64,000 bases of DNA from an uncultured bacterium (GTDB lineage: Bacteria; Krumholzibacteriota; Krumholzibacteriia; G020349025), in the NCBI GenBank assembly GCA_964567755.1, contig CAZMNW010000061.1, positions 4,890 through 68,889 of the forward strand. Direction: 5' to 3'. Shown here in pieces: positions 44,394 to 61,114 of the stretch (within the stretch, counting starts at the first letter, position 1; each line of letters starts with the position of its first letter). Both the position numbers and the translations under genes were made by a program. The notes under the pieces are model-generated. The model ran no database searches and had not been told where the DNA came from. It was given only the letters and a program-made list of their open reading frames with translations.

Positions 44394-45074
44394 TCAGACA
44401 CCCAGGAACAGCAAATCCACCGCGAGGCGAAACACCGGCCGGAAGATGCTGCCGAAGATGCGCCAGACGATGAGCATTCCCATCATCGCGACCATCGGTT
44501 GCGCGAAGATCTCCTGCACGCGGGCGCTGTAGTCGCGGCCGAGGAGGAGCGGCAGCACGCCGCTGCCGTCGAGGGGTGGAAAGGGCAGAATGTTGAGAAC
44601 GAAAAGGAGGAGATTCATCGAGAAGAGCACGCACACGATGAGCGCGACGCTTTCCCATCCCGGCCAACCATTCACCAGATGCGCGATGCTCGCCTCACCC
44701 GGCATGAACCATCCGGCGCCGAGCCCCAAGCGGATCAGCAACGCGGCCACGAGTGCCAAGGTCAGGTTCGCCGCCGGCCCGGCAAGCGACATGAGCGCTG
44801 ATCGCTTCGGGTAACGTCGTGCCCACTGCGGATCGTAGGGGGCGCTGGCGAAACCCATCGGCCAGCCGGAAAGGAACACCGAGAGCAATGGTAAGATCAC
44901 CATACCGAACGGTTCTCGACGAATGTGCGGCAGTGGATTGATCGACACCTGCCCGCCGCGATACGCAGTGAGATCGCCGCCGAGCATGCCGACCCAGGCG
45001 TGGGCTGCTTCGTGCAGCGTGGTCGAGAGCAAGAAAACGACGTAGAACACGACAGCTTCGAAAGGGTGGGCCAC
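44394..45074 (-). CDS. Site-2 protease (M50) family membrane metalloprotease
   Basis: LHEAAH, LAGPAAN and NILPFPPLDG. Start uncertain. Confidence 0.9.
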   Translation of the reverse strand: MAHPFEAVVFYVVFLLSTTLHEAAHAWVGMLGGDLTAYRGGQVSINPLPHIRREPFGMVILPLLSVFLSGWPMGFASAPYDPQWARRYPKRSALMSLAGPAANLTLALVAALLIRLGLGAGWFMPGEASIAHLVNGWPGWESVALIVCVLFSMNLLLFVLNILPFPPLDGSGVLPLLLGRDYSARVQEIFAQPMVAMMGMLIVWRIFGSIFRPVFRLAVDLLFLGV

Positions 45075-45195
45075 GCGAAGACCTCTCGGATTCCAAGACC
45101 CGCGCACCATATCACGCCAGGGGATCCGCCGGCACGGTTTCGGGCGCAGTGGTGTCACACTTCGATCCAGCCCGAAAGGCCGTCACGCGCGTTGG

Positions 45196-49753: not shown

Positions 49754-51340
49754 TCAGGGTGGCGCGTGGGAGGAATCGCGCGGAACGAAAACTTCGGCGA
49801 ACCCGGGAGTCACGAACCGAGTCTCGTGTCCAGCGATGCGTGCACGCACATCAAAAGACCCCTGCAGCTGGAGAAAGACCTGTTCCTCGGGTTGGCGCAT
49901 TCGGCTCGAGGCGACGTGGTGGACATCGAGCCGCACGTCGATCCGATCACGCTCGGCCGGGTTCAAGTGAGTGGTCCCGGATTCGGACGTGGCTGCAAGC
50001 GTCATCGCCGTCGGCGCGTGCGGGGCGCCACCGGCTGGTGCTTCGCTCCAGTCATATTGCGTCGCTTGCGGCCGAAAGAGTGCGAGCGTGCCCCCACGTT
50101 GCCCAGCGCTGCGGGCTTGCGCCAGGAGCAAGAAGATGCCGGCGCCAGCCGCGCCGGGGCTGTGTGTCGGATGTTCCACCCGGCCATACAAGAGCGCGTG
50201 CTCCGCGCTGCTCGCGGTTCCCCATTCCCAACTGACGCCGCGCCAAGTGCCCCAGTTGTGATCGTGATAGCCGGGAACTTCGCGCAATGTGAGCGTGACC
50301 CCCGGGGCCCGAATGGTGCCCGAAACCCAGGTGCGCAATGCCGGCACGGTGTAGCCCGAGATCCACCGTTCGCTGTCCTGGATGAGCACCGGAGGATAGT
50401 AAAGATCCAGCAGCGGACGAACCGTGAGATCGGCGTACACAGGTCCCCGTGGATCGGTCCACTCCAGATGCAATTGGTAAGCCCCATCGCGAAAGGTGGC
50501 GGTCGTGTGCGCGCCGAAACGCAGATCGACTCCTGCGAGCGAAATGCCGTCGGCTGCGAGCGGCATCTCCGTCCGCAGCTCATGGGCTGGTTCGCCGGGG
50601 CTCACGATCTGCAGGAGTGAAGTCGCGCGACCTTGACCGGCCTCGATGTCGCCGCTCGCGATCAAGCTCACAGTGCCGAAGACACCAGTCGCGGGATCGG
50701 TGAAGTTGAAGTACAGCCATTCTGCCCAGCGGTCGAGGTCGGGGAGAGTGCGCGGCGGCAAGTGGAAGCGATCCATGTCGTTGTACAGCGAGTCGACAGG
50801 TGGATCCACCCACATACGATCCGCGTCATGGTCACGCCAGACGATGCCCTGGCGCACAAATGCCGCCGTCGGGCCGCCGGCCGCGACATCGAGGCTCGGG
50901 ATGAAACCGTGCGCCAGAACCTCGAGAGGGGCCGCCGGCGTGCCTGCAGGCACGGCTAGCCGCGCATACATCACTTTCTCCACCAGCCCCGGCGAGGCGG
51001 CGGCGAATGGAAGGTCGGCATAATCCGGCGTCACGGGCGCGAAGGTCGCCGCGAAGCGCGGTCCCGAGAGCACTTGCCGGAACAGGAAGCGCGCATTGGC
51101 GAGCATGGAGTACATCCCCGTCGGGCCACCGATCTTCATGACCTCGACATCGATGCCGGCGGGAAGGAGCAGGAGGTCGCCGCCGCCGACCAGGTCCTTG
51201 TCGGTGGCTTGCACGAGAACCGCCTCGCCAATGGAGAGCAGGGTGATCATGACACCGACGGCGATGCCGAGACCCAAGAGCAGCATCGCCGTGCGGCGAG
51301 GACGATCGCTCAACGTGCGCAACGCCAACATCCCGATCAT
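49754..51340 (-). CDS. MacB/LolE-type permease N-terminal segment fused to a lipocalin/AttH(CrtC)-like domain
   Basis: RTAMLLLGLGIAVGVMITLLSIG TM1, then a soluble region with AEWLYFNF and GYHDHNWG. No C-terminal TM bundle. Confidence 0.65.
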   Translation of the reverse strand: MIGMLALRTLSDRPRRTAMLLLGLGIAVGVMITLLSIGEAVLVQATDKDLVGGGDLLLLPAGIDVEVMKIGGPTGMYSMLANARFLFRQVLSGPRFAATFAPVTPDYADLPFAAASPGLVEKVMYARLAVPAGTPAAPLEVLAHGFIPSLDVAAGGPTAAFVRQGIVWRDHDADRMWVDPPVDSLYNDMDRFHLPPRTLPDLDRWAEWLYFNFTDPATGVFGTVSLIASGDIEAGQGRATSLLQIVSPGEPAHELRTEMPLAADGISLAGVDLRFGAHTTATFRDGAYQLHLEWTDPRGPVYADLTVRPLLDLYYPPVLIQDSERWISGYTVPALRTWVSGTIRAPGVTLTLREVPGYHDHNWGTWRGVSWEWGTASSAEHALLYGRVEHPTHSPGAAGAGIFLLLAQARSAGQRGGTLALFRPQATQYDWSEAPAGGAPHAPTAMTLAATSESGTTHLNPAERDRIDVRLDVHHVASSRMRQPEEQVFLQLQGSFDVRARIAGHETRFVTPGFAEVFVPRDSSHAPP

Positions 51341-52023
51341 GATTCCGCCTCGATGTGCCCGTCACGCATGCGCAGTCGACGCGATGCGCGCGCCGCGAGC
51401 TCGGGATTGTGGGTCACGAGGACGATGGCGACACCAGCCGCATGCAGTGTCTCCAGCAAGGCAGCGATCTGTGCCCCCGTGGCCTCATCGAGCTCTCCCG
51501 TGGGTTCGTCGGCGAGCAACAGCTGCGGCCGGTTGACCAGGGCGCGCGCGATCGCCACGCGCTGCTGTTCGCCGCCGGAGAGCTGTCCCGGCTTGTGCCG
51601 CAGCCGGTGTGCGAGCCCGACGGTGGTCAGAACCTCGCGGACACGGGCTTCGCGCTCCGCCTTGGGCAAGCGGGCTTCGAGTGCCGGCAACGCCACGTTC
51701 TCGCCCGCGGTCAACATGGGCAGCAGGAAGAAGCGTTGGAAGACGAAACCAAGGGTGCGCAGTCGCAGTTCGGTGCGCATGGCATCGGACGCACCGATCA
51801 TGTCGCGCCCAAAGAGCCGGAGCTCGCCGGAGGTCGGTACGTCGACCGCGCCCAGGAGGTGCAGCAGCGTCGACTTGCCACATCCAGAGGGTCCCATGAT
51901 GGAAACGAACTCGCCCGGCTGCACGCTCAAGTTCACCGCGCGCAGCGCGTGAATGTCATGACCGTCCAGGACATAATCCTTGCGCAAGTCCCGTGCGACG
52001 ACGATCGGATCCGCTGGCTTCAT
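51337..52023 (-). CDS. ABC transporter ATP-binding protein (LolD/MacB-like)
   Basis: GPSGCGKST, LSGGEQQRVAIARAL, LADEPTGELD and VTH. Confidence 0.96.
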   Translation of the reverse strand: MKPADPIVVARDLRKDYVLDGHDIHALRAVNLSVQPGEFVSIMGPSGCGKSTLLHLLGAVDVPTSGELRLFGRDMIGASDAMRTELRLRTLGFVFQRFFLLPMLTAGENVALPALEARLPKAEREARVREVLTTVGLAHRLRHKPGQLSGGEQQRVAIARALVNRPQLLLADEPTGELDEATGAQIAALLETLHAAGVAIVLVTHNPELAARASRRLRMRDGHIEAES

Positions 52024-53225
52024 CCGATCACCTCGCGATGCAACGTCGGCGCAATGCGCAAGCGCGCGACAAGAAACGCCGGATATAAACCGGCCAGCGC
52101 ACCGCACAGCAACAACAGCACGAAGGTTCGCAGCACAGCCCGTGGTGTGAGAACGAAGAAGCTCAAGTCGACGGGAATGCTGGGGGCGCGGGTCAAGATG
52201 GCGTCGAGCCAGAGCGCGATGGCGAGTCCCGCCCCGAAGGTGATCGGGAGCGACAGAACCACCAGGCTCAGACTTTCCAAGAACACCAACGACACCAGGC
52301 GGCGGCGCCGCAATCCGACGGCACGCAAGATCGCGAGCTCGCCCAGTCGTTCGCCGAGAGACAACGCCACCAACGTGCCAACGAGCAACACACATACGAT
52401 CATGCTCACGGTGCCGAGAACGAGAGAAAAAAGGTTGAAATAGGTAAGCTGCCCTTGCACGGTGTCGAGTGCTTCGGCCATCGAGTACGCCTCCACTTCG
52501 GGAAACGTCGAGCGAATCCACGCCGACATCGCTTCACCCGTGCCGGCCGTGCCGGAGCCCTCGTCACGCAAGGCCACGGCGATGAGCGACAAACCATCGC
52601 GTGCCGCTTCGCCGCGCAGGAGCTGTGCCTGCCGCGTGCCGACAGCCAAGCTGCGCTGCGCGCGCAGATCGAAATGGAAGCTCGCGATGCCGCACACCGC
52701 GTAGCTTCGTGGCGAATGGAGCATGCCGACTTGGCTGGTGTACTCGGCGGCCACGAAGACCGTGTCTCCCGGAGCGATCTCGAGGGCATTCGCCAATGCG
52801 CGGCTCACGACTGCTTGCGTGCTGTCGGCGAGATCGGCGCCCTCGACCACGCGCCACAACGCGACCGAGGGCGGGTTCATGCCATAGACGAAGGCGGCCA
52901 CGGGGACACCATTCGGCCTGGCGGCGTACACCGTGCCGCCGACGATGGGCGCCACGTGCGCGACGCGCGCGTCGCCGGCGATCGCGGCCGCGATGCGATG
53001 TCCGTCGGGAAACGTGGCGTCGGTCTCGAACGGCAATGTGCCGCGTGGGGTCACCCGCACTTCGTAGCCGATGTTCTCGAGAATCCGGCGTAAGCTCGCT
53101 TGCAGGCCGCGCGACAGCATTTGCATGTCGAGCAGCAACGCGCCCGCGACGCCGACGCCGACAATGCCGAGCAGCGTGCGCGCACGGTGGCGAAACAAAC
53201 CACGCAGCACCAGGAAGCCGATCAC
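52020..53225 (-). CDS. FtsX/MacB-type ABC permease (complete 4-TM)
   Basis: N-terminal TM, periplasmic domain, ERLGELAILRAVG and three C-terminal TMs. Confidence 0.9.
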   Translation of the reverse strand: MIGFLVLRGLFRHRARTLLGIVGVGVAGALLLDMQMLSRGLQASLRRILENIGYEVRVTPRGTLPFETDATFPDGHRIAAAIAGDARVAHVAPIVGGTVYAARPNGVPVAAFVYGMNPPSVALWRVVEGADLADSTQAVVSRALANALEIAPGDTVFVAAEYTSQVGMLHSPRSYAVCGIASFHFDLRAQRSLAVGTRQAQLLRGEAARDGLSLIAVALRDEGSGTAGTGEAMSAWIRSTFPEVEAYSMAEALDTVQGQLTYFNLFSLVLGTVSMIVCVLLVGTLVALSLGERLGELAILRAVGLRRRRLVSLVFLESLSLVVLSLPITFGAGLAIALWLDAILTRAPSIPVDLSFFVLTPRAVLRTFVLLLLCGALAGLYPAFLVARLRIAPTLHREVIG

Positions 53226-53242
53226 GGGTCACCTGCCAACGG

Positions 53243-54082
53243 TCAGCGGCCGACGCAATCCAACGGATCGCGTCCCACGATGTGCCGCGCCACCAATCCT
53301 CCGGCGAGCAAGCCGGCGACAATCGAAAGCCCGGCCGCGAGGATCACGATCTCCGGGGTGACGCGCGCGAAGACGAGATCGGTGTCGTACCGGGCGCGTG
53401 ACGCCGGGTTGATGATGGCCACGGCGAGGTGCGCCAGACCCATCCCGGCGATGCTGCCCAACAAGGAGACGAGGGCCGAGATGAGAACCACACCACGCAC
53501 GATGGTGCGTCGAGAAATCCCGATGAGGCGCAGCACTCCGAGTTCGCGTCGCAACGATTCCACTTTGAGCACCATGATGGCGACGAGGAACACCAGACCG
53601 GCCAGCATCGACACCAAGCCGATGGCCTTGTGGAACTGTGAAATGACCACGAACGTGGAGGAATTCCGTGCCGCGACCTCACGCGCGCTGTAGGCGCCGA
53701 TGCCGATGCCCATGCCGTTGATCTCGCTGGCGACTCGCTCGGCTTGCAGGGGATCCCGCAGGCGCACTGCGAAACGGTCGACACGATCCATGCTTCCCGT
53801 CAAGCGCTCCAGGTCCGGAAGATGCATCGTCACGTGCAACTGTTCGAAGCCCACCTCGAAAGGATCCGGCGAGGGTCGGACGATGCCGCCGACGACGAAG
53901 CGGCGTGTGTTGCGCATGGCGGCGTCGGCGGCGATCTCCAACGTATCCCCTAGCCCCGCGCCGAGCGCGTCGGCCGTGCGGTCGCTCAAGACCACATCCG
54001 AGAGCGGCATCGTGGCCGGGGCGCTCGCGATGCAGACGCGAGCCATGAGAATGAAAACGAAGAAGATCGCGGCACGGCACAT
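53243..54082 (-). CDS. FtsX/MacB-type ABC permease lacking the N-terminal half
   Basis: Signal-like N-terminus (VCIASA), partial periplasmic domain, RRELGVLRLIG and three TMs. Confidence 0.75.
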   Translation of the reverse strand: MCRAAIFFVFILMARVCIASAPATMPLSDVVLSDRTADALGAGLGDTLEIAADAAMRNTRRFVVGGIVRPSPDPFEVGFEQLHVTMHLPDLERLTGSMDRVDRFAVRLRDPLQAERVASEINGMGIGIGAYSAREVAARNSSTFVVISQFHKAIGLVSMLAGLVFLVAIMVLKVESLRRELGVLRLIGISRRTIVRGVVLISALVSLLGSIAGMGLAHLAVAIINPASRARYDTDLVFARVTPEIVILAAGLSIVAGLLAGGLVARHIVGRDPLDCVGR

Positions 54083-54167
54083 GAGCGTAGCGTACCCGCC
54101 GAGCGAGAGCTGGTGCAACGCCGAGCGGACTTGGGCTCGTGCCCGGCGCTGCAGCGGTTGCAGAGCC

Positions 54168-54941
54168 TCACGCCGTGTGCGTCGACTGGCCGTTGCGCGC
54201 GCCGGCGACCCAAAGGGCGCGGTCGAGATCGATGGCGATCCAGCGCGGGCGCGGCAAGCGATCGACGAAGGCGCGCACGGCGCCACCGACGAGTGCCGCG
54301 GCGGCAGCGGCTGCGTGTGTCGCGGCCTGGTCGGCGCAATCGCCGGCTGCGGCGAGGGCGTCATCGGAGAGCGACGCTTCGTAGACGGAGACATCCTCCG
54401 GATCCGATGGCTGCACCTCGTGCAGGCGCACGAGACCGCGTCCGATGCGCAGATCCAGCACCAGCAAAATGCCTGCATCTCCGCGCAAGCGTTCCCACAG
54501 TTGCCGGCGTGTGGCCATGGTGTCGACGGCGAGCACCACGATCGGCGAGCGCCGCTGCTGTGGGCTCGCGATAAAACTCTCTGCATGCATCTCCACCCGG
54601 CAGCCAGGAACGATGGTCTGCAGCAGACCACGCAGCGCTTTCACCTTCTGCCGCCCCGCCGCCACGTCGCGCCGGCGATACAGCTGCAGACCCTGATTCT
54701 CGGCTCCCAGTCGGTCGCCGTCGTAGAGTCGCAGTTGCAGTCCCAGCATCGCCAGGACGAGAGCGATCTGCGACCCAGAGCGTCCGACTCCGACGATGGT
54801 GACTTCGACATCCGTCAGGTGCAAGGCGTCGAACCCGGCGTCATCCAGCGTCATGAGCTTCTGGGAACGCTCGCGATTCTGCCCCGGCGTGGACGGAACA
54901 TCACCGGGTGAAGTCGTGGATAGTGCGATTCGTTGCGTCAT
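54168..54941 (-). CDS. ThiF/E1-like ubiquitin-like-protein activating enzyme
   Basis: GVGRSGS, YDGDRL..EN...Q.Y, QKVKAL and AVDT..TRR; a single Cys in GDCADQ; no Zn CxxC pairs; GGAGG RBS. Confidence 0.88.
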   Translation of the reverse strand: MTQRIALSTTSPGDVPSTPGQNRERSQKLMTLDDAGFDALHLTDVEVTIVGVGRSGSQIALVLAMLGLQLRLYDGDRLGAENQGLQLYRRRDVAAGRQKVKALRGLLQTIVPGCRVEMHAESFIASPQQRRSPIVVLAVDTMATRRQLWERLRGDAGILLVLDLRIGRGLVRLHEVQPSDPEDVSVYEASLSDDALAAAGDCADQAATHAAAAAAALVGGAVRAFVDRLPRPRWIAIDLDRALWVAGARNGQSTHTA

Positions 54942-55791
54942 CGATTGCCACCTCCGTTGCATCCGGGACATCGAGCCACAGCGACAATCCTTGCGGCACT
55001 TTCCCTTGCCGATCGCCGCGCAGCACCGGGCGCCATTCTTTCGGGCAGGCGTCGAGAGGGACACCGATCACCCGCCGCGACGTTTCCGCCGCGACTTGGG
55101 CGATGAAACCGATTCGCGGCATCAATCGCGGCGGCGCGACGAGGACGACTTCTCGCGCGCTGGTGGCGAGCAGCCCGGCGAGCAGCACCACTTCGCTCCA
55201 TGAGAGAGTCTCGAGGCGCCACAGGCCGTGCTGGCCAAGGCGCCAGAATGGACCTCCACGTTCGCCACGGCATGGCAGATCGAGCCCGCGTTCGCCGATC
55301 CAACGCTCGCGTTGCGGACCCTGAGCATGCAGCACCGGGGGGACGAAGAACGCCTCGCCCAAGCTGCGCAGCCGCGGCGAATGAATGGCTGCCACAGCGG
55401 CGAGGCCCTTCCAAGATCGATCCGGTGCGGCGCCATCCTCGAGCGCCAGATAGGCGCAGGATCGTCCACGCAGATTCGCTTCGTAGAGAAACACACAGGG
55501 ACGGAAGATTGGGAGCAGTGCGTCGAGTGTGTCGGTCGCGCGTCGAGCCTGCGCGAAGCAAGCTGCGGCCAGCGCGGTCTCGAGACAGACAAGATGCTGC
55601 GGGGCGCTATTCGACAGGCCAGGTGCGGCGTGAGATTCCGCCGCCAGACATGCCCCGTGCAATGCTCTCTGTTGAATCTCCACGGCTGCCGCGTCGAATC
55701 GGCCGCAGCTCCACTCGTCCTGGGTTTCGGGTGCGACGAGCATGTCCTGCAATGGCAGGTGAAAATTTCGCCAGAACTCGCGCCACGGCAT
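54901..55791 (-). CDS. Hypothetical protein in the Ubl/E1 operon
   Basis: About 296 aa; starts 19 nt after the upstream stop and overlaps the E1 start by 41 nt. No family recognised. Confidence 0.6.
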   Translation of the reverse strand: MPWREFWRNFHLPLQDMLVAPETQDEWSCGRFDAAAVEIQQRALHGACLAAESHAAPGLSNSAPQHLVCLETALAAACFAQARRATDTLDALLPIFRPCVFLYEANLRGRSCAYLALEDGAAPDRSWKGLAAVAAIHSPRLRSLGEAFFVPPVLHAQGPQRERWIGERGLDLPCRGERGGPFWRLGQHGLWRLETLSWSEVVLLAGLLATSAREVVLVAPPRLMPRIGFIAQVAAETSRRVIGVPLDACPKEWRPVLRGDRQGKVPQGLSLWLDVPDATEVAIDDATNRTIHDFTR

Positions 55792-55810
55792 GGTTGTCCC
55801 CCCCACGGCT

Positions 55811-56383
55811 TCAGTTCTCTCGCAGATACGCGATGGTGGTCAGAAACAGCGTGCGCAGATCCAAGCGATTGAGCGCCCATCCCATGTAGGCGAAGCCGGC
55901 GTCCCCATAGCAGCGTGGCATTGCATCCTTGGTCTGGGATGGATTCGATGCGTCCAGCTCCTGAATCTGAATGCGCCGGCGGCGCAACCCTTCGGGTAGC
56001 AAGAGGATGCGGAGATTGCGGTCCTGGACCTGGCTCGGAGCCACACGCGCTCCCAAACGATCGCGCGCAAACTCGAGAGCGGTCAAAGATCCACCCACGA
56101 GCGGCAACAATGCCTCGAGGCAGCGCGCCGCCTCGGCCAGGGGATCGCGCGTCACCCGACCGAAGAATGCGAGCAACGTCTCGGCGCGTTCGAGATCGAC
56201 GGACATCATCCGTGATGGTTCTCTGGAAGGATCGCGACGCAGAGCCAGGAAGTACTCCCGCCGCTGCCTGACATCCTGAAGTGCAAGCGACGCCTGACAG
56301 GTCAGGATTTGGCCAAGGCTCGCAAGAGCCTGCTGTCGCTTCGGCGGTGGCGGATTGCTTTCGCACACGGTCAAGGTGAACAT
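55811..56383 (-). CDS. Putative prokaryotic E2 (UBC-fold)-like protein with a helical N-terminus
   Basis: AAGGAAGGA RBS; C-terminal strands, then NPS..PRCYGDAG and helix WAL.RLDL..L...IAYL.EN. Family call is inference. Confidence 0.5.
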   Translation of the reverse strand: MFTLTVCESNPPPPKRQQALASLGQILTCQASLALQDVRQRREYFLALRRDPSREPSRMMSVDLERAETLLAFFGRVTRDPLAEAARCLEALLPLVGGSLTALEFARDRLGARVAPSQVQDRNLRILLLPEGLRRRRIQIQELDASNPSQTKDAMPRCYGDAGFAYMGWALNRLDLRTLFLTTIAYLREN

Positions 56384-56480
56384 CGACAGGTCCTTCCTTC
56401 GTAGCCACGGGCCCGAGAGGCCGAGATGCGCAGGCCCAGTACCCACGCGCCGGACGAACTGGCGCGGTGATGAACTGCCG

Positions 56481-56520
56481 GGCGGCGGCGGCGCTGCAGC
56501 GTGGCTGTCGCGCCGCCGCC
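56481..56520. other. GC-rich intergenic hairpin between the Ubl and E2-like genes, no U-tract
   Basis: GGCGGCGGCG (56481-90) pairs with CGCCGCCGCC (56511-20), with an inner GCAGC/GCTGT helix. Confidence 0.6.
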
Positions 56521-56536
56521 ACTCCGGACCTGTCGG

Positions 56537-56764
56537 TCAACCGCCGCGGATGTGCGGCATGAGCAAAGTCTCGGTGCCAGGCTGCACGATGGGATCGCCC
56601 ACCACGGGCGACCCGTTCATGAACAGCTGGCCGTTGCGGTTCGAGATCCCCAGCCCCTCCAGCATTTCCGACAGCCGAATGGAGCTCGTTTCCGGCAAGG
56701 GCACTTCGTATTCGCCCTCCGCCAAAATGACGACACGAGCCGATGGTTTGGCGCTGGTCTGCAT
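56537..56764 (-). CDS. Ubiquitin-like beta-grasp protein ending in Gly-Gly
   Basis: 75 aa after GGAGGA; ...QLFMNGSPVVGDPIVQPGTETLLMPHIRGG-stop. Confidence 0.85.
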   Translation of the reverse strand: MQTSAKPSARVVILAEGEYEVPLPETSSIRLSEMLEGLGISNRNGQLFMNGSPVVGDPIVQPGTETLLMPHIRGG

Positions 56765-57129
56765 CCTCATTCCTCCCAAATTTGCGCGGCGTGTTTTTCG
56801 GCACACTTGCGAGTGCGTGTGCAAACAACTCTGACGGCTCCATCATGCATGCCAGCGCGCTCGAATCCTCTTTCTCAGATTGGCTCTCAAGAAAACTCAG
56901 AAGTGCGCGATCTGGTGTCCCGAAAAAAGGACGTGTAGACATGACACACTCGGTGTCGATACACACCGGCGCTGTGGAAATCTGCCCACGAACACGAGTC
57001 AATGCACACAAACGCGGGGACTTCGCGGTGCTCTTGATCGACGGCGAGTCTTCTGGTAAACAAAGCAAGCGCGGCCCGCGCACGGAGACATTGCAATGCG
57101 TATGTACGCTTCGGCGAAGGGGCTTGGTC

Positions 57130-58203
57130 ATGCCGTCCGTCCACACCTTCAACCAGAGAACGCGCACCACCCACAAGTCGCTGGAAGAACTACTGAAGCT
57201 GCACGAAAAGGTGACACCGATGCAGCTGGCCGCGAAGCTCTATCCCGAAGAGGCGGCGCTCTTGGAGGAGATCGTGGCGTTCTTGGACTCGGTTCCTGAT
57301 GCGATCCAAAGGCTGCAGCCCGACGACTTGAAGCTCCTGCGCGCGATCGCCGAAGAGCTCGAAAACGGGCGACGCCGCAGTCGCCCGCTCAAGATTCTCG
57401 CGCGCAAGATCCTGTGCGCACCCAGCAGCGACTTCCAGGTGGAAAAAGCGCACGCCGCGCGCCTGAGGGATCTCTTCGAACAAGCTCTGGTGCAGGACGT
57501 GCAAACGCGCGTGCATGAGCTGCGCCTGCAGCTGCCGACACTGGGGACCGACGACCATGGACAGACGCTCACGGTGTCACGGTCGCCCTATCGTCTGCTG
57601 CGCGTCGATTGGACCTTGAGCGACGAGGACATGGTGGCCCTCGAAGCCGTGTATCCGATGTTCGACCGCCAAGCGTGGAAGGGCCCGCCGAGTTACATGG
57701 AAACCAAGGCGTTTCGCCTGGCGCAGGAGCGCCTGCGTTTCGCGCTCGCGACCGGCATGATCCTGGCGGATGACGGCACGCCGCTGCTGCAGCAGGGTGT
57801 GCGCAAGTGTTCGCTCAGCACCGCCGTGCGCGACCAGCTCGACTGGGTCGTCGAGGTGAGCGACAAGATGCAGCAGATTTTCGAAATCTTCTATGCTCCA
57901 TGCGCCACGGCGTGGGAACGCGATCGTTTCTATGCCCTGGCGGAATGGGCCGAACCGCACGCGGTGGACATCGTGCGTTTCATCTTGGCGTGCCGAAACG
58001 AGATCTTGCGGGTGATGAATGCCTTCTTCACCAGCATCGGCCAGAAGCCGTGGCCGGCGGTGCAGGGTCACGACTTCCCCCAACGGCTGGTGCCGCCCGG
58101 GAGGATTCCACAGCAGCCGTTCCTGGTCCTGCGCGACGACCTGCTGGCGATGCACCGGCGGCTGCGCGAGATCGGCGTCAATTACTTGTCGCGCGCGGCG
58201 TGA
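57130..58203 (+). CDS. Hypothetical helical protein divergent from the Ubl operon
   Basis: About 357 aa with protein-like composition; no motif recognised. Confidence 0.65.
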   Translation: MPSVHTFNQRTRTTHKSLEELLKLHEKVTPMQLAAKLYPEEAALLEEIVAFLDSVPDAIQRLQPDDLKLLRAIAEELENGRRRSRPLKILARKILCAPSSDFQVEKAHAARLRDLFEQALVQDVQTRVHELRLQLPTLGTDDHGQTLTVSRSPYRLLRVDWTLSDEDMVALEAVYPMFDRQAWKGPPSYMETKAFRLAQERLRFALATGMILADDGTPLLQQGVRKCSLSTAVRDQLDWVVEVSDKMQQIFEIFYAPCATAWERDRFYALAEWAEPHAVDIVRFILACRNEILRVMNAFFTSIGQKPWPAVQGHDFPQRLVPPGRIPQQPFLVLRDDLLAMHRRLREIGVNYLSRAA

Positions 58204-58303
58204 GCGCGGGGGCGAACCACCTCGGTCTCGGCTCCTGTTTCGCCAGCGAGAGTCGCGCACGCTACAGTGAATGCAGCCACCGGCGACGCGACGAGGAGAA
58301 CCG

Positions 58304-58999
58304 ATGCGCATGCACGTGGGCACGAGTGGCTACTCCTACAAGGAGTGGAAGCCGGCGTTCTATCCGCAAGAGCTCGCCTCGACTGCGATGCTGCGCTTCT
58401 ATGCCGAGCGGCTCGACACCGTCGAGATCAACAACACCTTCTACCGCATGCCGTCGAAGAAGGTCTTGCAAGGTTGGTGCGCCGAGGTTCCGCCATTTTT
58501 CCGTTTCGCGGTGAAGGCGACGCGGCGCGTCACGCACTTCAAGCGTCTGCGCGATGTGGGCAGCGAGCTGGATTTTCTCTTCGGGAATCTGGCGGCGCTC
58601 GAAGGCCGACTGGGGCCGGTGCTGTTCCAGCTGCCGCCGAATCTCGGCATCGACATGCCGCTGTTACAGGACTTCCTGGCCCAGGTGCCGCCCCACATCC
58701 AGAGCGTGCTGGAGTTTCGCGAGCCGTCCTGGTTCGACGACACGGTGTTTTCTTTGTTGCGGCAGAACGGTGTCGCCTTGTGTGCGATGGAGGAAGAGGA
58801 GGCGGAGGCGCGCGTCGTCCCGACCACCAATTTCGGCTACTTCCGCCTGCGGCGCGAGCGCTATTCCGCCGCGGAGCTCGAATCCTGGGTGGACCGCATC
58901 CGTGCCCAGCCGTGGGACGAAACTTTTGTCTACTTCAAACACGACACCGCCGCCCCGAACCTCGCCTTGGATTTCGTGCGCGCAACGCGCGGCGAATGA
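58304..58999 (+). CDS. DUF72 family protein
   Basis: VGTSGYSYKEW, VEINNTFYRMP, LFQLPP and EFR..SW. Confidence 0.95.
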   Translation: MRMHVGTSGYSYKEWKPAFYPQELASTAMLRFYAERLDTVEINNTFYRMPSKKVLQGWCAEVPPFFRFAVKATRRVTHFKRLRDVGSELDFLFGNLAALEGRLGPVLFQLPPNLGIDMPLLQDFLAQVPPHIQSVLEFREPSWFDDTVFSLLRQNGVALCAMEEEEAEARVVPTTNFGYFRLRRERYSAAELESWVDRIRAQPWDETFVYFKHDTAAPNLALDFVRATRGE

Positions 59000-59078: not shown

Positions 59079-59729
59079 ATGATGCTACAGGAACGAGATC
59101 GTCAAGCGGTGCGCCAGCGGCTCGCGGACTTGGCCAAGCCCGTGCGACTCGTCAATTTCACCCAGGAACTGGAGTGCGAGTTCTGCAGGGAGACGCGGAC
59201 GCTGCTCGAGGAAGTCGTATCCCTCTCGGACAAAGTGAGCTTGGAGGTTTACAACTTCCAGACCGACCGCGATCAACGCGATGCCTACGGCATCGACAAG
59301 ATTCCTGCCACGGTGGTGATGAGCGAGAATGACCTAGGGATCCGTTTCTACGGCATTCCTTCCGGTTACGAGTTCGCCTCGCTCCTGGACACGATGTTGT
59401 TGGTCGCAAGCGGCGACAGTGGTTTGGCGCCGGAAACACGCACGCGACTGGCCCAGCACCAGAAGCCGCTGCATCTCGAGGTGTTCGTCACTCCGACTTG
59501 ACCGCACTGTCCGCGAGCCGTGCTGCTCGCCAACGCCTTCGCGATCGAAAGCATGCTCGTGCGCGTCGACTGCATCGAGGCCACGGAATTCCCGCACCTG
59601 GCGCAGCGCCATCGCGTCATGGGTGTGCCGAAGACAGTGGTGAACGCCACCGGCGGTGTCGAAGGTGCCATGCCCGAGTCGCATTACCTCGACGCCGTGC
59701 TCGCCGCCGCCGAAGCGCAAGCCTCCTGA
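59079..59729 (+). CDS. Two-domain glutaredoxin-like protein disulfide oxidoreductase (PDO/AhpF-NTD-like), probable selenoprotein (UPHC)
   Basis: CEFC in domain 1. In-frame TGA 59499-59501 in FVTPT-TGA-PHC, continuing to GVPKTVVN. GIPSGYEF motif. Confidence 0.88.
59513..59530 (+). promoter_or_regulatory. Candidate bacterial SECIS hairpin
   Basis: GCGAGC-CGTGCT-GCTCGC; loop begins 17 nt after the UGA, with G then U near its 5' side. Confidence 0.6.
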
Positions 59730-59793: not shown

Positions 59794-60723
59794 TCACTTC
59801 TTCCATGCACGAATCTTTGTCGAAATCACGGCGTCAGCCGCCGCGTCGCGCAACTCGTCTCCGAGACCGGTCGCGCAACCGGCGTAGGATTTTTCCTCGA
59901 CAATCTCGACGCGCGAGAACCCCGCGTCGCGGACCATCTGGACGTAGTCGTCGCGGAGTGCGGCTCCTGCGACGCAGCCGACGTAGGCCTCGACGGAGGC
60001 CTTCACCGCCGGCGGCAGCGGGCGCAGGAGCACGAGATCGCTCACCACCAGTCGGCCGCCGGAGCGCAACACGCGCAGGGACTCGCGAAAGACCTGCGGC
60101 TTGTCCGGAGACAAGTTGATGACGCAGTTCGAGATGATGACGTCGACGCTGGAGTCGGCCACTGGCAGATGCTCGATCTCGCCGAGACGGAACTCGATGT
60201 TGTCGATTCCCACCTTGCGCGCATTCAGCCGCGCGCGTTCGATCATGTCGGGTGTCATGTCGACGCCGAGAACGCGACCCGAGGGCCCGACCTCGCGGGC
60301 GGCGAGGAACGCATCCATCCCTGCCCCGGAGCCCAAGTCGAGCACGGTCTCGCCGGCGCCGAGGTGCGCGTGTGCCAGGGGATTGCCGCAGCCGAGCCCG
60401 AGGTTGGCACCCTCGGGGATGGCCCGAGCCTGTTCGGGGCTGTAGCCCAACTGCTCCGGATTCTCGACCACGCTGGTGCCGCAGCAGCCAGGGGACTCGG
60501 CGCGCGCAATCTGAGCGTACCTGTCGCGGACCAGACGATGGATGTCCATCTCCGAGGTCAGCGCGATCTCTTGTCCAGGCGCCGGGGCAGAGGCGTCGCA
60601 ACAAGCCGACGCCGTATCTTTGGTGACGGCTGGCGCATCCGTAGTGTCGCTGCAACATGTTGGGGCGCAACAAGACTCGTTGGCGTCCGTCGTGTCCTTC
60701 ACGTGTGAATTCGTCGCATCCAT
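59794..60723 (-). CDS. arsM: Arsenite S-adenosylmethionine methyltransferase with a Cys-pair-rich N-terminal extension
   Basis: GCCG, ANLGLGCGNP, LDLGSGAG, IISNCVINL and YVGCVAGA. Confidence 0.93.
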   Translation of the reverse strand: MDATNSHVKDTTDANESCCAPTCCSDTTDAPAVTKDTASACCDASAPAPGQEIALTSEMDIHRLVRDRYAQIARAESPGCCGTSVVENPEQLGYSPEQARAIPEGANLGLGCGNPLAHAHLGAGETVLDLGSGAGMDAFLAAREVGPSGRVLGVDMTPDMIERARLNARKVGIDNIEFRLGEIEHLPVADSSVDVIISNCVINLSPDKPQVFRESLRVLRSGGRLVVSDLVLLRPLPPAVKASVEAYVGCVAGAALRDDYVQMVRDAGFSRVEIVEEKSYAGCATGLGDELRDAAADAVISTKIRAWKK

Positions 60724-60738
60724 GATTCTTCCTCCTTC

Positions 60739-61056
60739 TCAGAGTTCCTCGATGAGTGCCTGCAGCCGGCGGACGGTGGCGTCGTCGAGGCAGTAGCACA
60801 CGTGCGGCGGTTCCACTTCGCCGCGGATGAGACCCGCTTCCTTGAGCACCTTGAGATGCTGCGACACCGTGGACTGTGCCCGGGGTAGCTCATCGACCAA
60901 GTCGCCGCAGACGCACTCACCCCGCTGGCGCAGCGTGCGCAGGATTCGCAGTCGCAACGGATGTGCGATCCCGCGGGCGAGGCGCGCCAACTCCAGCTCC
61001 TCGCTGCTCCAACCGCTGGCGCGGCGAGCCGGTGTGTCTGGTCGCGAACGGCCCAT
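60739..61056 (-). CDS. arsR: ArsR/SmtB metalloregulator
   Basis: [34 protein letters not shown] and CYC. Confidence 0.93.
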
Positions 61057-61077
61057 GTGGCCACCCCCTTCAATCGT

Positions 61078-61114
61078 CAATCGTAAATATACGATTGGAT
61101 GCCGCGTGGGTCAA
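61078..61114 (-). promoter_or_regulatory. sigma70 promoter of arsR-arsM with overlapping palindromic operator
   Basis: Minus strand TTGACC-17-TATATT. CAATCGTA-AATA-TACGATTG (61078-61097) overlaps the -10 box. Confidence 0.8.

What the first reader, a model, noticed from the sequence alone, without database searches (positions are those of the whole stretch)
54168..56764. Compact bacterial ubiquitin-like conjugation operon: Ubl(GG), E2-like, unknown protein, E1, with no JAB peptidase
Seen: four co-directional, tightly spaced genes. They are a 75-aa beta-grasp-like protein ending exactly at IRGG, a 190-aa protein with a lone C-terminal-domain PRCYG motif, a ~296-aa unknown, and a ThiF/E1 with intact adenylation motifs, one candidate catalytic Cys (GDCADQ) and no Zn-binding CxxC pairs. 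Established: ThiS/MoaD-ThiF sulfur relays normally sit with thiG, moaE or thiouridine enzymes, whereas Ubl-E1-E2 operons (Bil, CBASS Cap2, PRTRC) conjugate the Ubl to proteins and usually carry a JAB peptidase. Inference: no sulfur-acceptor gene and no JAB gene is in the window, and the Ubl needs no processing. This may be a variant protein-conjugation system, possibly defensive, with the unknown gene as target or ligase.
Basis: partly seen in the sequence, partly recalled or inferred. Interest (0 to 1): 0.9.

Follow-up and report, generated by a model that had tools for sequence, protein, structure and literature searches.

The report
Rare five-gene bacterial ubiquitin-like cassette
A very rare, conserved five-gene unit in uncultured Krumholzibacteria/Latescibacteria-type bacteria encodes a small ubiquitin-like protein with a ready-made Gly-Gly end, a minimal activating enzyme and three proteins unlike anything catalogued; it probably attaches the small protein to something, but this is inferred, not shown.

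Summary
The four genes exist as described, on the minus strand. They are a 75-aa ThiS/MoaD-like protein ending IRGG-stop, a 190-aa protein with an invariant Cys (PRCYG), a 296-aa orphan protein, and a minimal ThiF-type E1 with one invariant Cys and no CxxC.

The same order recurs in about 17 independent loci. It is divergently transcribed and present in all 11 loci that reach that far, including distant ones with different flanks.

The 190-aa family has only 16 representatives among 1.84 billion sequence clusters. It, p296 and div match no Pfam, NCBIfam, PADLOC or PHROG model.

A confident AlphaFold model of the 190-aa protein shows a helical bundle followed by a helix, five strands and two helices, with the Cys between the last strand and a helix. 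That is an E2/RWD-like topology. Foldseek finds no significant match, so "E2" remains an inference.

No JAB peptidase and no thiamine, Moco or tRNA-thiolation gene lies near any locus. Flanks are ordinary, syntenic chromosomal genes, so a defence role is unsupported.

Best reading: a new Cys-dependent Ubl activation and transfer pathway. A sulfur-carrier role is the main rival.

The parts
56537..56764 (-). Ubl: a 75-aa ThiS/MoaD/SAMP-like small protein ending IRGG directly before the stop codon. Gly75 codon is at 56542-56540.
   Evidence: Weak Pfam SAMP2 hit, E=0.003, below the family cutoff. Orthologues in 11 loci all end (R/Y)GG-stop. The beta-grasp fold is inferred from the sequence pattern and was not modelled.
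56482..56522 (-). GC-rich stem-loop (12-13 bp stem) starting 15 nt after the Ubl stop, inside the 153-nt Ubl-p190 spacer. Probably a leaky terminator or an mRNA-stabilising hairpin that sets Ubl in excess over the enzymes.
   Evidence: a comparable long stem follows the Ubl stop in all 8 loci folded, with different sequences; in 7 of 12 loci the stem beats at least 95% of dinucleotide shuffles. The function is inferred.
55811..56383 (-). p190: orphan 190-aa protein. It has an N-terminal three-helix region (residues 13-95), then five strands (100-155), then two helices (161-189). The invariant Cys158 (codon 55912-55910) lies in the strand-to-helix loop. It is the candidate Ubl carrier (E2-like).
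   Evidence: AF2 model: pLDDT 87.9, pTM 0.84. Invariant residues: C158, G160, R125, R137, N190. Only 16 representatives in 1.84e9 clusters. No family hits. Foldseek not significant.
54901..55791 (-). p296: orphan protein with a variable, partly low-complexity N-terminal half and a conserved C-terminal half (motif ERGGPFWRLGxxxLWRLDVLxW). No invariant Cys, His, Ser or Lys. Probably a non-catalytic partner or adaptor of E1.
   Evidence: Alignments. The gene overlaps E1 by 1-41 nt in 6 loci. The AF2 model failed (pLDDT 49.5), so its fold is unknown. No family or PDB hit.
54168..54941 (-). Minimal ThiF-type E1 (257 aa from 54941, or 227 aa from 54851). Gly-rich loop GVGRSGS, YDGD, GRQKV, AVDTM. 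Invariant Cys202 (codon 54338-54336) at the crossover-loop position of ThiF C184 / MoeB C187. No Zn-binding CxxC pairs.
   Evidence: Pfam ThiF 2.6e-12, above cutoff. All NCBIfam equivalogs are far below their cutoffs. PDB profile hits: PaaA 3.9e-5, UBA5 1.7e-4, TcdA, Cap2, covering the Rossmann part only. Family alignment.
57130..58203 (+). div: fifth conserved gene, about 357 aa, divergently transcribed from the Ubl operon. Orphan family. Invariant R, Y, E, S and N residues but no invariant Cys or His. Role unknown: regulator, adaptor/E3-like factor or substrate.
   Evidence: Present upstream in 11 of 11 loci that reach that far, including L011 (31% identity) and L012 (24% identity, different wider context). 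No Pfam, NCBIfam, PADLOC or PHROG hit. One weak, untrusted CadC wHTH hit, E=0.019.
56765..57129 (.). 365-bp divergent intergenic region, the presumed promoter region for both div and the Ubl operon. It contains a GC-rich near-palindrome (about 57066-57083).
   Evidence: No sigma-70-type consensus was found. Similar 12-mers occur in L001, L007, L009 and L014, but this may be chance in GC-rich DNA.

Best explanation
This is a lineage-restricted, chromosomally inherited Ubl activation and transfer pathway built on two cysteines. All steps below are inferred, not shown.

1. The minimal ThiF-type E1 adenylates the pre-exposed C-terminal Gly75 of the 75-aa Ubl. E1 probably works as a complex with the translationally coupled p296, which could supply the Arg contacts that E1 itself lacks.
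2. The acyl-adenylate is attacked by E1 Cys202 in the crossover loop, giving a thioester.
3. The Ubl passes to the invariant Cys158 of p190. This Cys sits between the last beta-strand and a helix of a small alpha/beta domain, as the catalytic Cys does in E2 enzymes.
4. The Ubl is discharged onto an amine of an unknown target.

p296 and/or div would act as adaptor, E3-like specificity factor, regulator or substrate. A hairpin after the Ubl gene probably keeps Ubl in excess over the enzymes. The stable chromosomal context suggests a housekeeping, regulatory or stress role rather than phage defence.
For: Conserved five-gene synteny in about 17 loci across 25-90% identity and two clades with different flanks.

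All Ubls end GG-stop.

E1 passes the Pfam ThiF threshold and keeps the Gly loop, the ribose Asp, the phosphate Lys and the Mg Asp. It has one invariant Cys at the ThiF C184 / MoeB C187 position.

p190 has exactly one invariant Cys in 21 of 21 members. A confident model (pLDDT 87.9) gives helix, five strands, a loop carrying the Cys, then two helices.

The two best Foldseek hits are the same chain (K) of two independent KMN-network structures (probability 0.72 and 0.66). A Dwarf Ndc80 Tetramer chain (5tcs_D) also appears at rank 33. From my own knowledge, these are coiled-coil plus RWD proteins, and RWD is a UBC-like fold.

p296 and E1 overlap in 6 loci.

No sulfur-acceptor enzyme and no JAB peptidase near any locus.
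Against: There is no biochemical evidence.

p190 has no sequence match to any E2, RWD or UFC1 family. Its Foldseek matches are not significant (E 0.18, TM 0.37).

The folds of p296 and div are unknown.

E1 lacks the Arg of NxxRQ and an N-terminal Arg finger, so its adenylation competence is assumed.

No invariant Lys in any cassette protein marks a built-in target.

The Ubl and E1 are closest, though weakly, to sulfur-carrier families (ThiF PRK08644 2.9e-12; SAMP2 0.003).
Confidence: 0.45

Rival explanations
1. Sulfur-carrier pathway. E1 adenylates the Ubl, which is converted to a C-terminal thiocarboxylate through a persulfide relay using E1 Cys202 and/or p190 Cys158. p296 and div would be novel enzymes that use this sulfur to make a lineage-specific thio-metabolite, cofactor or modified RNA.
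For: The best family hits are sulfur-relay enzymes: ThiF PRK08644 2.9e-12, thiF_fam2 and MoeB, with SAMP2 0.003 for the Ubl. The Ubl has the ThiS/MoaD-like ...PG.E....P..RGG tail. Vertical inheritance in a housekeeping context fits a metabolic function. Dual-function Ubls (SAMPs, TtuB) exist; this is from established knowledge.
Against: All equivalog scores are far below cutoff, for example 46.7 against 159 bits. No ThiG, MoaE, CysM, PP-loop (TtuA/NcsA), rhodanese or cysteine desulfurase lies in the module or within about 10 kb in any locus. The MoeB/ThiF Zn-binding CxxC pairs are absent. p296 and div have no invariant Cys or His and no recognisable cofactor motif. p190's motif is not rhodanese-like.
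Confidence: 0.25
2. Anti-phage defence system of the Bil/Bub/CBASS-Cap2 kind. The Ubl would be conjugated to a phage or host protein on infection.
For: All characterised bacterial Ubl-E1-E2 conjugation systems have been linked to phage defence (10.1101/2024.11.21.623953). E1 weakly matches PADLOC Cap2 E1-E2 models at about 1e-9, in the Rossmann part only.
Against: p190, p296 and div have no PADLOC hits and no PHROG hits. The chromosomal position is conserved, next to DUF72, nuo genes and a MacB-type ABC transporter in one clade, and next to MatE/p352 genes in another. No integrase, transposase, tRNA or defence gene is nearby. Codon GC3 is like that of neighbouring genes. There is no JAB peptidase and no CapW/CapH-CapP regulator.
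Confidence: 0.08
3. Peptide natural-product (RiPP-like) pathway. The ThiF-like enzyme would modify the C-terminus of the 75-aa protein as a precursor, as MccB and PaaA do.
For: The best PDB hit of E1 is PaaA, at 3.9e-5. One clade has a small HExxH membrane protease directly after E1 (L019/L020).
Against: The PaaA match covers only the generic Rossmann region. E1 has no RRE or peptide-clamp domain. The 75-aa protein is conserved along its whole length with a ThiS/MoaD-like pattern, rather than showing leader/core organisation. No transporter or immunity gene is conserved with the module, and the M50-like gene is not conserved across loci.
Confidence: 0.04

Closest known systems
Bil systems (BilA Ubl, BilB E2, BilC JAB, BilD E1), types I and II
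   Same: Separate Ubl, Cys-bearing carrier and Cys-bearing E1 genes in one operon. The expected chemistry is adenylate, then E1~Cys, then carrier~Cys, then target.
   Different: There is no JAB peptidase. E1 is a single 220-260-aa adenylation domain, not IAD-AAD-CYS. p190 does not match UBC by sequence or by Foldseek. There are two extra orphan genes (p296, div). The Ubl is a single small ThiS-like domain with a free GG end. The genomic context is not a defence context.
Bub systems (6E/DUF6527), types I and II
   Same: A diverged bacterial Ubl-E1-E2 pathway. Type II usually lacks a JAB peptidase. It includes an extra family-specific protein.
   Different: Bub works through Tyr/Ser oxyesters and lacks catalytic Cys, whereas here both E1 and p190 have an invariant Cys. 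Bub proteins are fused (Ubl-E2, JAB-E1 or E2-E1) and always carry DUF6527 BubE. There is no DUF6527 hit here.
ThiS-ThiF / MoaD-MoeB sulfur relays and the archaeal SAMP-UbaA system
   Same: A small GG-ended beta-grasp-type protein plus a minimal ThiF-family E1 with a crossover-loop Cys. These give the closest sequence hits.
   Different: Scores are far below the equivalog cutoffs. There is no Zn site, no Arg of NxxRQ and no ThiG, MoaE or thiolation partner. Three additional conserved orphan genes are present, one with an invariant Cys.
UFM1-UBA5-UFC1
   Same: E1 is a minimal single-domain enzyme whose second-best PDB relatives are UBA5. The candidate carrier has N-terminal helices in front of its alpha/beta core, as UFC1 has (from my knowledge). 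The Ubl tail G(S/T)E...P..R.G resembles the UFM1 tail.
   Different: hhalign of the Ubl against UFM1 gives probability 2.6%. There is no Pfam Ufm1 or UFC1 hit. No Zn site. The resemblance is an unproven lead only.
PRTRC cassette and CBASS Cap2/Cap3
   Same: ThiF-family E1 in a multi-gene cassette. Weak E1 hits: PRTRC_ThiF 3.7e-8, Cap2 models about 1e-9.
   Different: There are no hits to PRTRC proteins A-F or ParB. There is no fused E2-E1, CD-NTase or JAB/Cap3.

Membership tests
ThiF/E1 superfamily (Pfam PF00899) | Rossmann-type adenylation domain scoring above the Pfam gathering threshold | tested here: met
   46.8 bits against a cutoff of 28.1, E=2.6e-12, residues 11-118 of the 227-aa form.
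ThiF/E1 superfamily (Pfam PF00899) | Full set of ATP/Mg contacts: Gly loop, ribose Asp, Arg of NxxRQ, Lys, Mg Asp, N-terminal Arg finger | tested here: inconclusive
   The Gly loop, YDGD, GRxKV and AVDTM are invariant. The Arg of NxxRQ is an invariant Leu and there is no conserved N-terminal Arg.
ThiF / MoeB equivalogs (sulfur relay) | Score above the NCBIfam equivalog cutoff; Zn-binding CxxC pairs; ThiS/ThiG or MoaD/MoaE partners nearby | tested here: not met
   Best score 46.7 bits against a cutoff of 159. No CxxC. No partner genes in any locus.
E2 / UBC-like superfamily (UQ_con, Prok-E2_A-E, UFC1, RWD) | Sequence match to an E2-like profile | tested here: not met
   No such Pfam hit at E<=10 in any of 21 members. 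The PDB profile search found nothing relevant.
E2 / UBC-like superfamily (UQ_con, Prok-E2_A-E, UFC1, RWD) | UBC/RWD fold: a helix, a 4-5-strand meander sheet, a loop carrying the catalytic Cys, then helices | tested here: inconclusive
   The secondary-structure order of the confident AF2 model fits, and Cys158 is in the equivalent loop. However, the best Foldseek hit has E=0.18 and TM 0.37 (KMN chain K), with nothing significant in PDB or BFVD. The C-terminal domain could not be searched on its own.
E2 / UBC-like superfamily (UQ_con, Prok-E2_A-E, UFC1, RWD) | Forms a Ubl~Cys thioester | not testable with these tools
   Needs biochemistry.
Bil system | JAB peptidase BilC plus a multi-domain E1 (IAD-AAD-CYS) | tested here: not met
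   No JAB peptidase in the module or flanks of any locus. E1 is a single domain of 219-259 aa.
Bub system (6E/DUF6527) | DUF6527 BubE protease; fused Ubl-E2/JAB-E1 or E2-E1; no catalytic Cys | tested here: not met
   No DUF6527 hit. The genes are separate. E1 and p190 each have an invariant Cys.
CBASS/Pycsar/MBL Cap2-Cap3 | Fused E2-E1 Cap2, JAB Cap3 and an adjacent CD-NTase, cyclase or MBL | tested here: not met
   PADLOC Cap2 models match only the E1 Rossmann part (E about 1e-9). No other component is present.
PRTRC cassette | TIGR03734-03742 proteins (ParB, A-F, ThiF) together | tested here: not met
   PRTRC_ThiF scores 33 bits against a cutoff of 144.75. p190, p296 and div have no hits to proteins A-F or ParB.
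Ubiquitin-like beta-grasp (ThiS/MoaD/SAMP) | Beta-grasp fold with a C-terminal Gly-Gly | tested here: inconclusive
   GG-stop in all 11 orthologues. The SAMP2 hit scores 18.4 bits, below the cutoff of 27. No PDB sequence hit.

The most novel reading that the evidence does not exclude
This is a previously undescribed bacterial protein-tagging (or other amine-tagging) pathway. Its Ubl carrier is a structurally new, Cys-dependent enzyme: either convergent with E2s or diverged from them beyond detection. It would work with two further orphan proteins and without any protease, and it is inherited vertically as a housekeeping or regulatory system in Krumholzibacteria/Latescibacteria-type bacteria. 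That would make it closer in lifestyle to pupylation than to the phage-defence Ubl systems.
Probability: 0.3. Interest if true: 0.8.

Novelty: new variant of a known kind. Interest (0 to 1): 0.62.

Why it matters
Bacterial ubiquitin-like conjugation has so far been shown only for defence-linked systems: CBASS Cap2, Bil and Bub.

A conserved cassette with a ready-to-use GG-ended Ubl, a stripped-down E1, a Cys-bearing carrier that no profile or fold search recognises, two more orphan proteins and no deconjugating peptidase would add a new branch to this set. Its non-defence context would also raise the question of what an uncultured FCB-group lineage tags, and why.

If instead it is a sulfur relay, p190, p296 and div would be new sulfur-transfer or sulfur-insertion proteins.

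Either way, three protein families would gain a first functional context, and the E1 shows how far the adenylation site can be reduced.

Tried and rejected
1. Pfam, NCBIfam, PADLOC and PHROG scans of p190, p296 and div from several loci, at lenient E-values, found nothing.

2. Profile searches of PDB sequences found nothing useful. p190 and p296 gave nothing. div gave only a weak CadC wHTH hit (E=0.019), which I do not trust. The Ubl gave nothing.

3. Foldseek of the p190 model against PDB and BFVD gave no significant match.

4. The AF2 model of p296 from 8 sequences failed (pLDDT 49.5). Its Foldseek hits (RNase E and others) are meaningless and were discarded.

5. hhalign tests for hidden paralogy were all negative (probability below 1%): p296 against E1, div against p296, div against p190, and p296 against p190. 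Two local look-alike motifs were noted but are not significant.

6. The Ubl against UFM1 gave probability 2.6%.

7. Rfam, tRNA and promoter scans of the window or region found nothing relevant.

8. The M50-like protease next to E1 in L019/L020 was tested as a possible missing peptidase. It is not conserved in other loci and is not homologous to the window's M50 gene.

9. Compositional evidence for horizontal transfer: cassette GC3 is 0.70-0.80 against 0.75-0.83 in neighbours, so there is no clear anomaly.

10. The source contig of the window could not be retrieved by exact-protein look-up.
Full report
**What is in the sequence**

The finding lies on the minus strand of a 64%-GC window. Reading 5' to 3' on that strand:

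- Ubl, 56764..56537: 75 aa, with RBS GGGAGGA, ending PHIRGG directly before TGA.
- A 153-nt spacer.
- p190, 56383..55811: 190 aa.
- A 19-nt gap.
- p296, 55791..54901: 296 aa.
- The ThiF-type E1, ending at 54168.

An in-frame ATG at 54941 has GGAGGTGG six bases upstream. Its N-terminal peptide (M[TP]QRI..STTS) is shared with the closest relative, L007, and the gene called there has 259 aa. I therefore take 54941 as the start. E1 then overlaps p296 by 41 nt.

The descriptive claims hold. Cys158 (PRCYG) is the only Cys in the C-terminal half of p190. E1 has two Cys, of which only Cys202 (GDCADQ) is conserved, and no CxxC.

**The cassette is conserved, very rare, and has five genes**

A word-seeded search of 5.8 billion protein clusters found 10 relatives of p190, all exactly 190 aa, and 4 relatives of p296. 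A profile of p296 brought that to 8. An exhaustive HMMER profile search of 1.84 billion cluster representatives found only 16 p190-family representatives.

I collected 22 loci, about 17 of them independent, from contig look-ups and from genome and metagenome scans. HMM and tblastn mapping shows the order Ubl, p190, p296, E1 wherever the contig reaches.

A divergently transcribed gene of about 330-410 aa ("div"; window 57130-58203, + strand) lies upstream of the Ubl in 11 of 11 loci that extend that far. This includes L011 (31% identity), L012 (24%) and L019/L021, whose wider neighbourhoods are different. div evolves at about the same rate as p190 (47-50% identity where p190 is 48-52%).

The named genomes are two Candidatus Krumholzibacteriia MAGs and one complete Candidatus Latescibacterota MAG chromosome, CP070763.1.

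**The Ubl**

All 11 orthologues end (R/Y)GG-stop, so no C-terminal processing is needed. The pattern V.L.EGEY.V....L..LL..LGI..R.GQLY.NG.P......V.PGSE....P.IRGG resembles ThiS, MoaD and SAMP. The only family hit is SAMP2 at E=0.003, below threshold, and no PDB sequence hit appears.

**The E1**

It passes the Pfam ThiF threshold (46.8 against 28.1 bits). It is far below every NCBIfam equivalog cutoff: ThiF PRK08644 46.7 against 159, PRTRC_ThiF 33 against 144.75, and MoeB, UbaA and TcdA weaker still. PADLOC Cap2 "E1-E2" models match only the Rossmann part. The best solved relatives are PaaA (3.9e-5), UBA5 (1.7e-4), TcdA and Cap2, again matching only about 90 N-terminal residues.

E1 is the most conserved protein of the cassette (57-82% identity). 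Invariant features are GxGRxGS, YDxDRLG, GRxKV and AVDTM. An invariant Cys sits in D/V/A-C-x-(D/E)-(E/Q), directly before HAAAAAAAL. By visual register, the Cys falls where ThiF C184 and MoeB C187 lie.

Two departures from the canonical site are invariant. The Arg of the NxxRQ motif is Leu (NQGLQ). No conserved Arg precedes the Gly loop where ThiF and MoeB have their Arg finger. "Intact adenylation motifs" is thus only partly right.

**p190, the proposed E2**

AlphaFold2 on the 10-sequence alignment gave a confident model (pLDDT 87.9, pTM 0.84):

- a short strand;
- three long helices (13-50, 58-79, 81-95);
- five consecutive strands (100-155);
- a loop;
- two helices (161-172, 176-189).

Cys158 sits in the loop between the last strand and the next helix. 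Across 21 family members down to 26% identity, the invariant residues are M1, R125, R137, C158, G160, L171 and the (near-)C-terminal N190.

The order helix, beta-meander, Cys loop, helices is that of UBC/RWD domains, and the Cys is where an E2 catalytic Cys would be. But every formal test failed or was inconclusive:

- No UQ_con, Prok-E2, UFC1 or RWD hit, even at E<=10, in any of the 21 members.
- No PDB sequence hit.
- Best Foldseek match E=0.18, TM 0.37: chain K of two human KMN-network structures. A Dwarf Ndc80 Tetramer chain (5tcs_D) also appears at rank 33. From my own knowledge these kinetochore subunits are coiled coil plus RWD, which is suggestive but not significant.
- Nothing in BFVD.

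The long N-terminal helices probably dominate the whole-chain comparison. I could not search the C-terminal domain alone.

**p296 and div**

p296 has a variable, partly low-complexity N-terminal half and a conserved C-terminal half. The motif (E/D)xGGP(F/Y)WRLGxxxLWRLDVLxWxE is nearly invariant. Across 11 loci the invariant residues are Phe, Pro, Leu, Asp, Gly, Arg and Trp, with no Cys, His, Ser or Lys. This argues against a JAB, Cys or Ser peptidase and for a binding or scaffold role. Its AF2 model failed (pLDDT 49.5), so the Foldseek output was disregarded.

div has invariant R, Y, E, S and N residues and also no invariant Cys or His.

Neither protein matches any profile library. Neither matches the other cassette proteins in hhalign.

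The p296 and E1 genes overlap by 1-41 nt in the window and in L003, L004, L006, L007 and L019. This suggests translational coupling and a p296-E1 complex. Since E1 lacks its own Arg finger, p296 may supply it, as the inactive subunit does in heterodimeric eukaryotic E1s. This is a hypothesis only.

**Regulatory anatomy**

The Ubl-p190 spacer (60-230 nt) carries a strong GC-rich hairpin shortly after the Ubl stop. It appears in all eight loci folded, with different sequences. With a crude perfect-stem metric, 7 of 12 loci exceed at least 95% of dinucleotide shuffles. I read it as a leaky terminator or a stabiliser that keeps Ubl mRNA in excess over the enzyme genes. No Rfam family, tRNA or sigma-70 consensus was found.

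**Context and the defence question**

In the window the cassette lies between a MacB-type ABC transporter on one side and div, DUF72, a thioredoxin-like gene and ArsR/ArsM on the other. The rest of the window is ordinary chromosome: aconitase, cytochrome oxidase, heme synthesis genes, RpiA and P5CR.

The same DUF72 and ABC flanks recur in related loci, where flanking proteins are 65-84% identical. In the complete Latescibacterota chromosome the flanks are nuo genes, DUF72, a cupin, a surface protein and an ATP-grasp gene. A second clade (L012, L019-L021) shares a different set of flanks.

Cassette GC3 resembles that of its neighbours. No integrase, tRNA, defence gene, JAB peptidase or sulfur-cofactor gene appears near any locus.

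This pattern indicates vertical inheritance at a fixed chromosomal site, not a mobile defence island.

**Mechanism**

The most economical reading is a two-cysteine Ubl relay:

1. E1, probably with p296, adenylates Gly75.
2. Cys202 takes the Ubl as a thioester.
3. Cys158 of p190 receives it.
4. It is discharged to an amine on an unknown target.

div and/or p296 would act as adaptor, regulator or substrate. Nothing in this chain is shown. It rests on motif conservation, two single invariant cysteines in the expected places, gene coupling and the absence of sulfur-acceptor enzymes. I put it at about 0.45.

The main rival, at about 0.25, is a thiocarboxylate sulfur-carrier pathway in which the orphan proteins are new sulfur-handling enzymes. 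The closest, though weak, sequence relatives and the housekeeping context favour it. The absence of every known partner enzyme, and of cofactor-like invariant residues, counts against it. A defence role (about 0.08) and a RiPP-type role (about 0.04) are less likely.

**Comparison with known systems**

The known bacterial Ubl systems, as summarised in 10.1101/2024.11.21.623953, are:

- Bil I/II: Ubl, UBC-type E2, JAB peptidase, multi-domain E1.
- Bub I/II: fused proteins, DUF6527 protease, oxyester chemistry without Cys.
- CBASS/Pycsar/MBL: Cap2-Cap3.

The present cassette fails the defining features of each, and of PRTRC and the ThiF/MoeB equivalogs (see the membership table). It shares with them only the E1 superfamily, a GG-ended small protein and, probably, the logic of a Cys relay.

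Full-text searches found no description of it. A search for Krumholzibacteria together with ubiquitin gave zero papers.

I class it as a new variant of a known kind: a bacterial Ubl-E1-carrier pathway in which three of the five proteins are orphan families.

Noticed in passing
window 56482-56522 (- strand); equivalent spacers in L001, L004, L007, L009-L012, L014, L019, L021: A strong GC-rich hairpin follows the Ubl stop codon in every locus folded, inside a conserved 60-230-nt Ubl-p190 spacer. The stem sequences differ between loci. It is probably an attenuator or stabiliser that sets Ubl in excess over the enzymes.
   Followed up: partly
window 54901-54941; L003 1273; L004 4417-4420; L006 1864-1870; L007 2374-2414; L019 11436-11439: The p296 and E1 reading frames overlap by 1-41 nt in six loci, which suggests translational coupling and a p296-E1 complex. 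E1 lacks the usual Arg of NxxRQ and an N-terminal Arg finger, so p296 might supply them.
   Followed up: partly
window ~57066-57083 (intergenic, ~50 nt upstream of div): A GC-rich near-palindrome, GCGCGGGCCGCGC. Similar 12-mers (at most 2 mismatches) occur in the div-Ubl intergenic regions of L001, L007, L009 and L014. It could be an operator, or chance in GC-rich DNA.
   Followed up: partly
L007 1571-2408; proteins P0018/P0019 on one 9634-nt contig: p296 is split or frameshifted in two metagenomic contigs. This is either an assembly or sequencing error, or decay of this gene in some populations.
   Followed up: no
protein P0031 (208 aa): A representative with a formiminotransferase N-terminal domain (FTCD_N, 3e-51) joined to the last ~80 residues of the p190 family. 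It is probably a chimeric contig or gene call rather than a real fusion.
   Followed up: no
window 58271-58999 (+); L001 1958-2580; L004 2-145; L009 6987-7826: A DUF72 gene lies next to div in all four clade-A loci that reach that far, but not in the second clade (L012, L019-L021). This is probably inherited synteny rather than a functional link.
   Followed up: partly
L019 12143-12832 / L020 7550-8239; window 44394-45158 (-): A small HExxH membrane protease (M50/daptide-protease-like, 7e-6) follows E1 directly in one clade. The window has an M50 peptidase 9 kb away. The two are not detectably homologous by BLAST, and the adjacency is not conserved.
   Followed up: yes
p296 residues ~96-140 vs E1 ~185-225; p296 ~171-195 vs p190 ~155-176: Two local look-alikes: FRP..LYEANL...LED.AAP...GLAAVAAI against VRP....VYEASL..D....DCAD.A.HAAAAAAAL, and LDPPxRxERGGPFWRLG..LWRLDVL against MPRCYGDxGxAY.GWALNRLDL. 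hhalign probabilities are below 1%, so they are probably chance.
   Followed up: yes
window 49754-54100 (-): An operon with two FtsX/MacB-type permeases, an ABC ATPase and a 528-aa orphan protein lies directly downstream of E1. It is conserved in L004, L006 and L007 at 65-84% identity.
   Followed up: partly
window 59794-61080 (-): A pair consisting of an ArsR-family regulator and an arsenite-methyltransferase-like SAM methyltransferase, next to a thioredoxin-fold gene (59082-59501, +).
   Followed up: no
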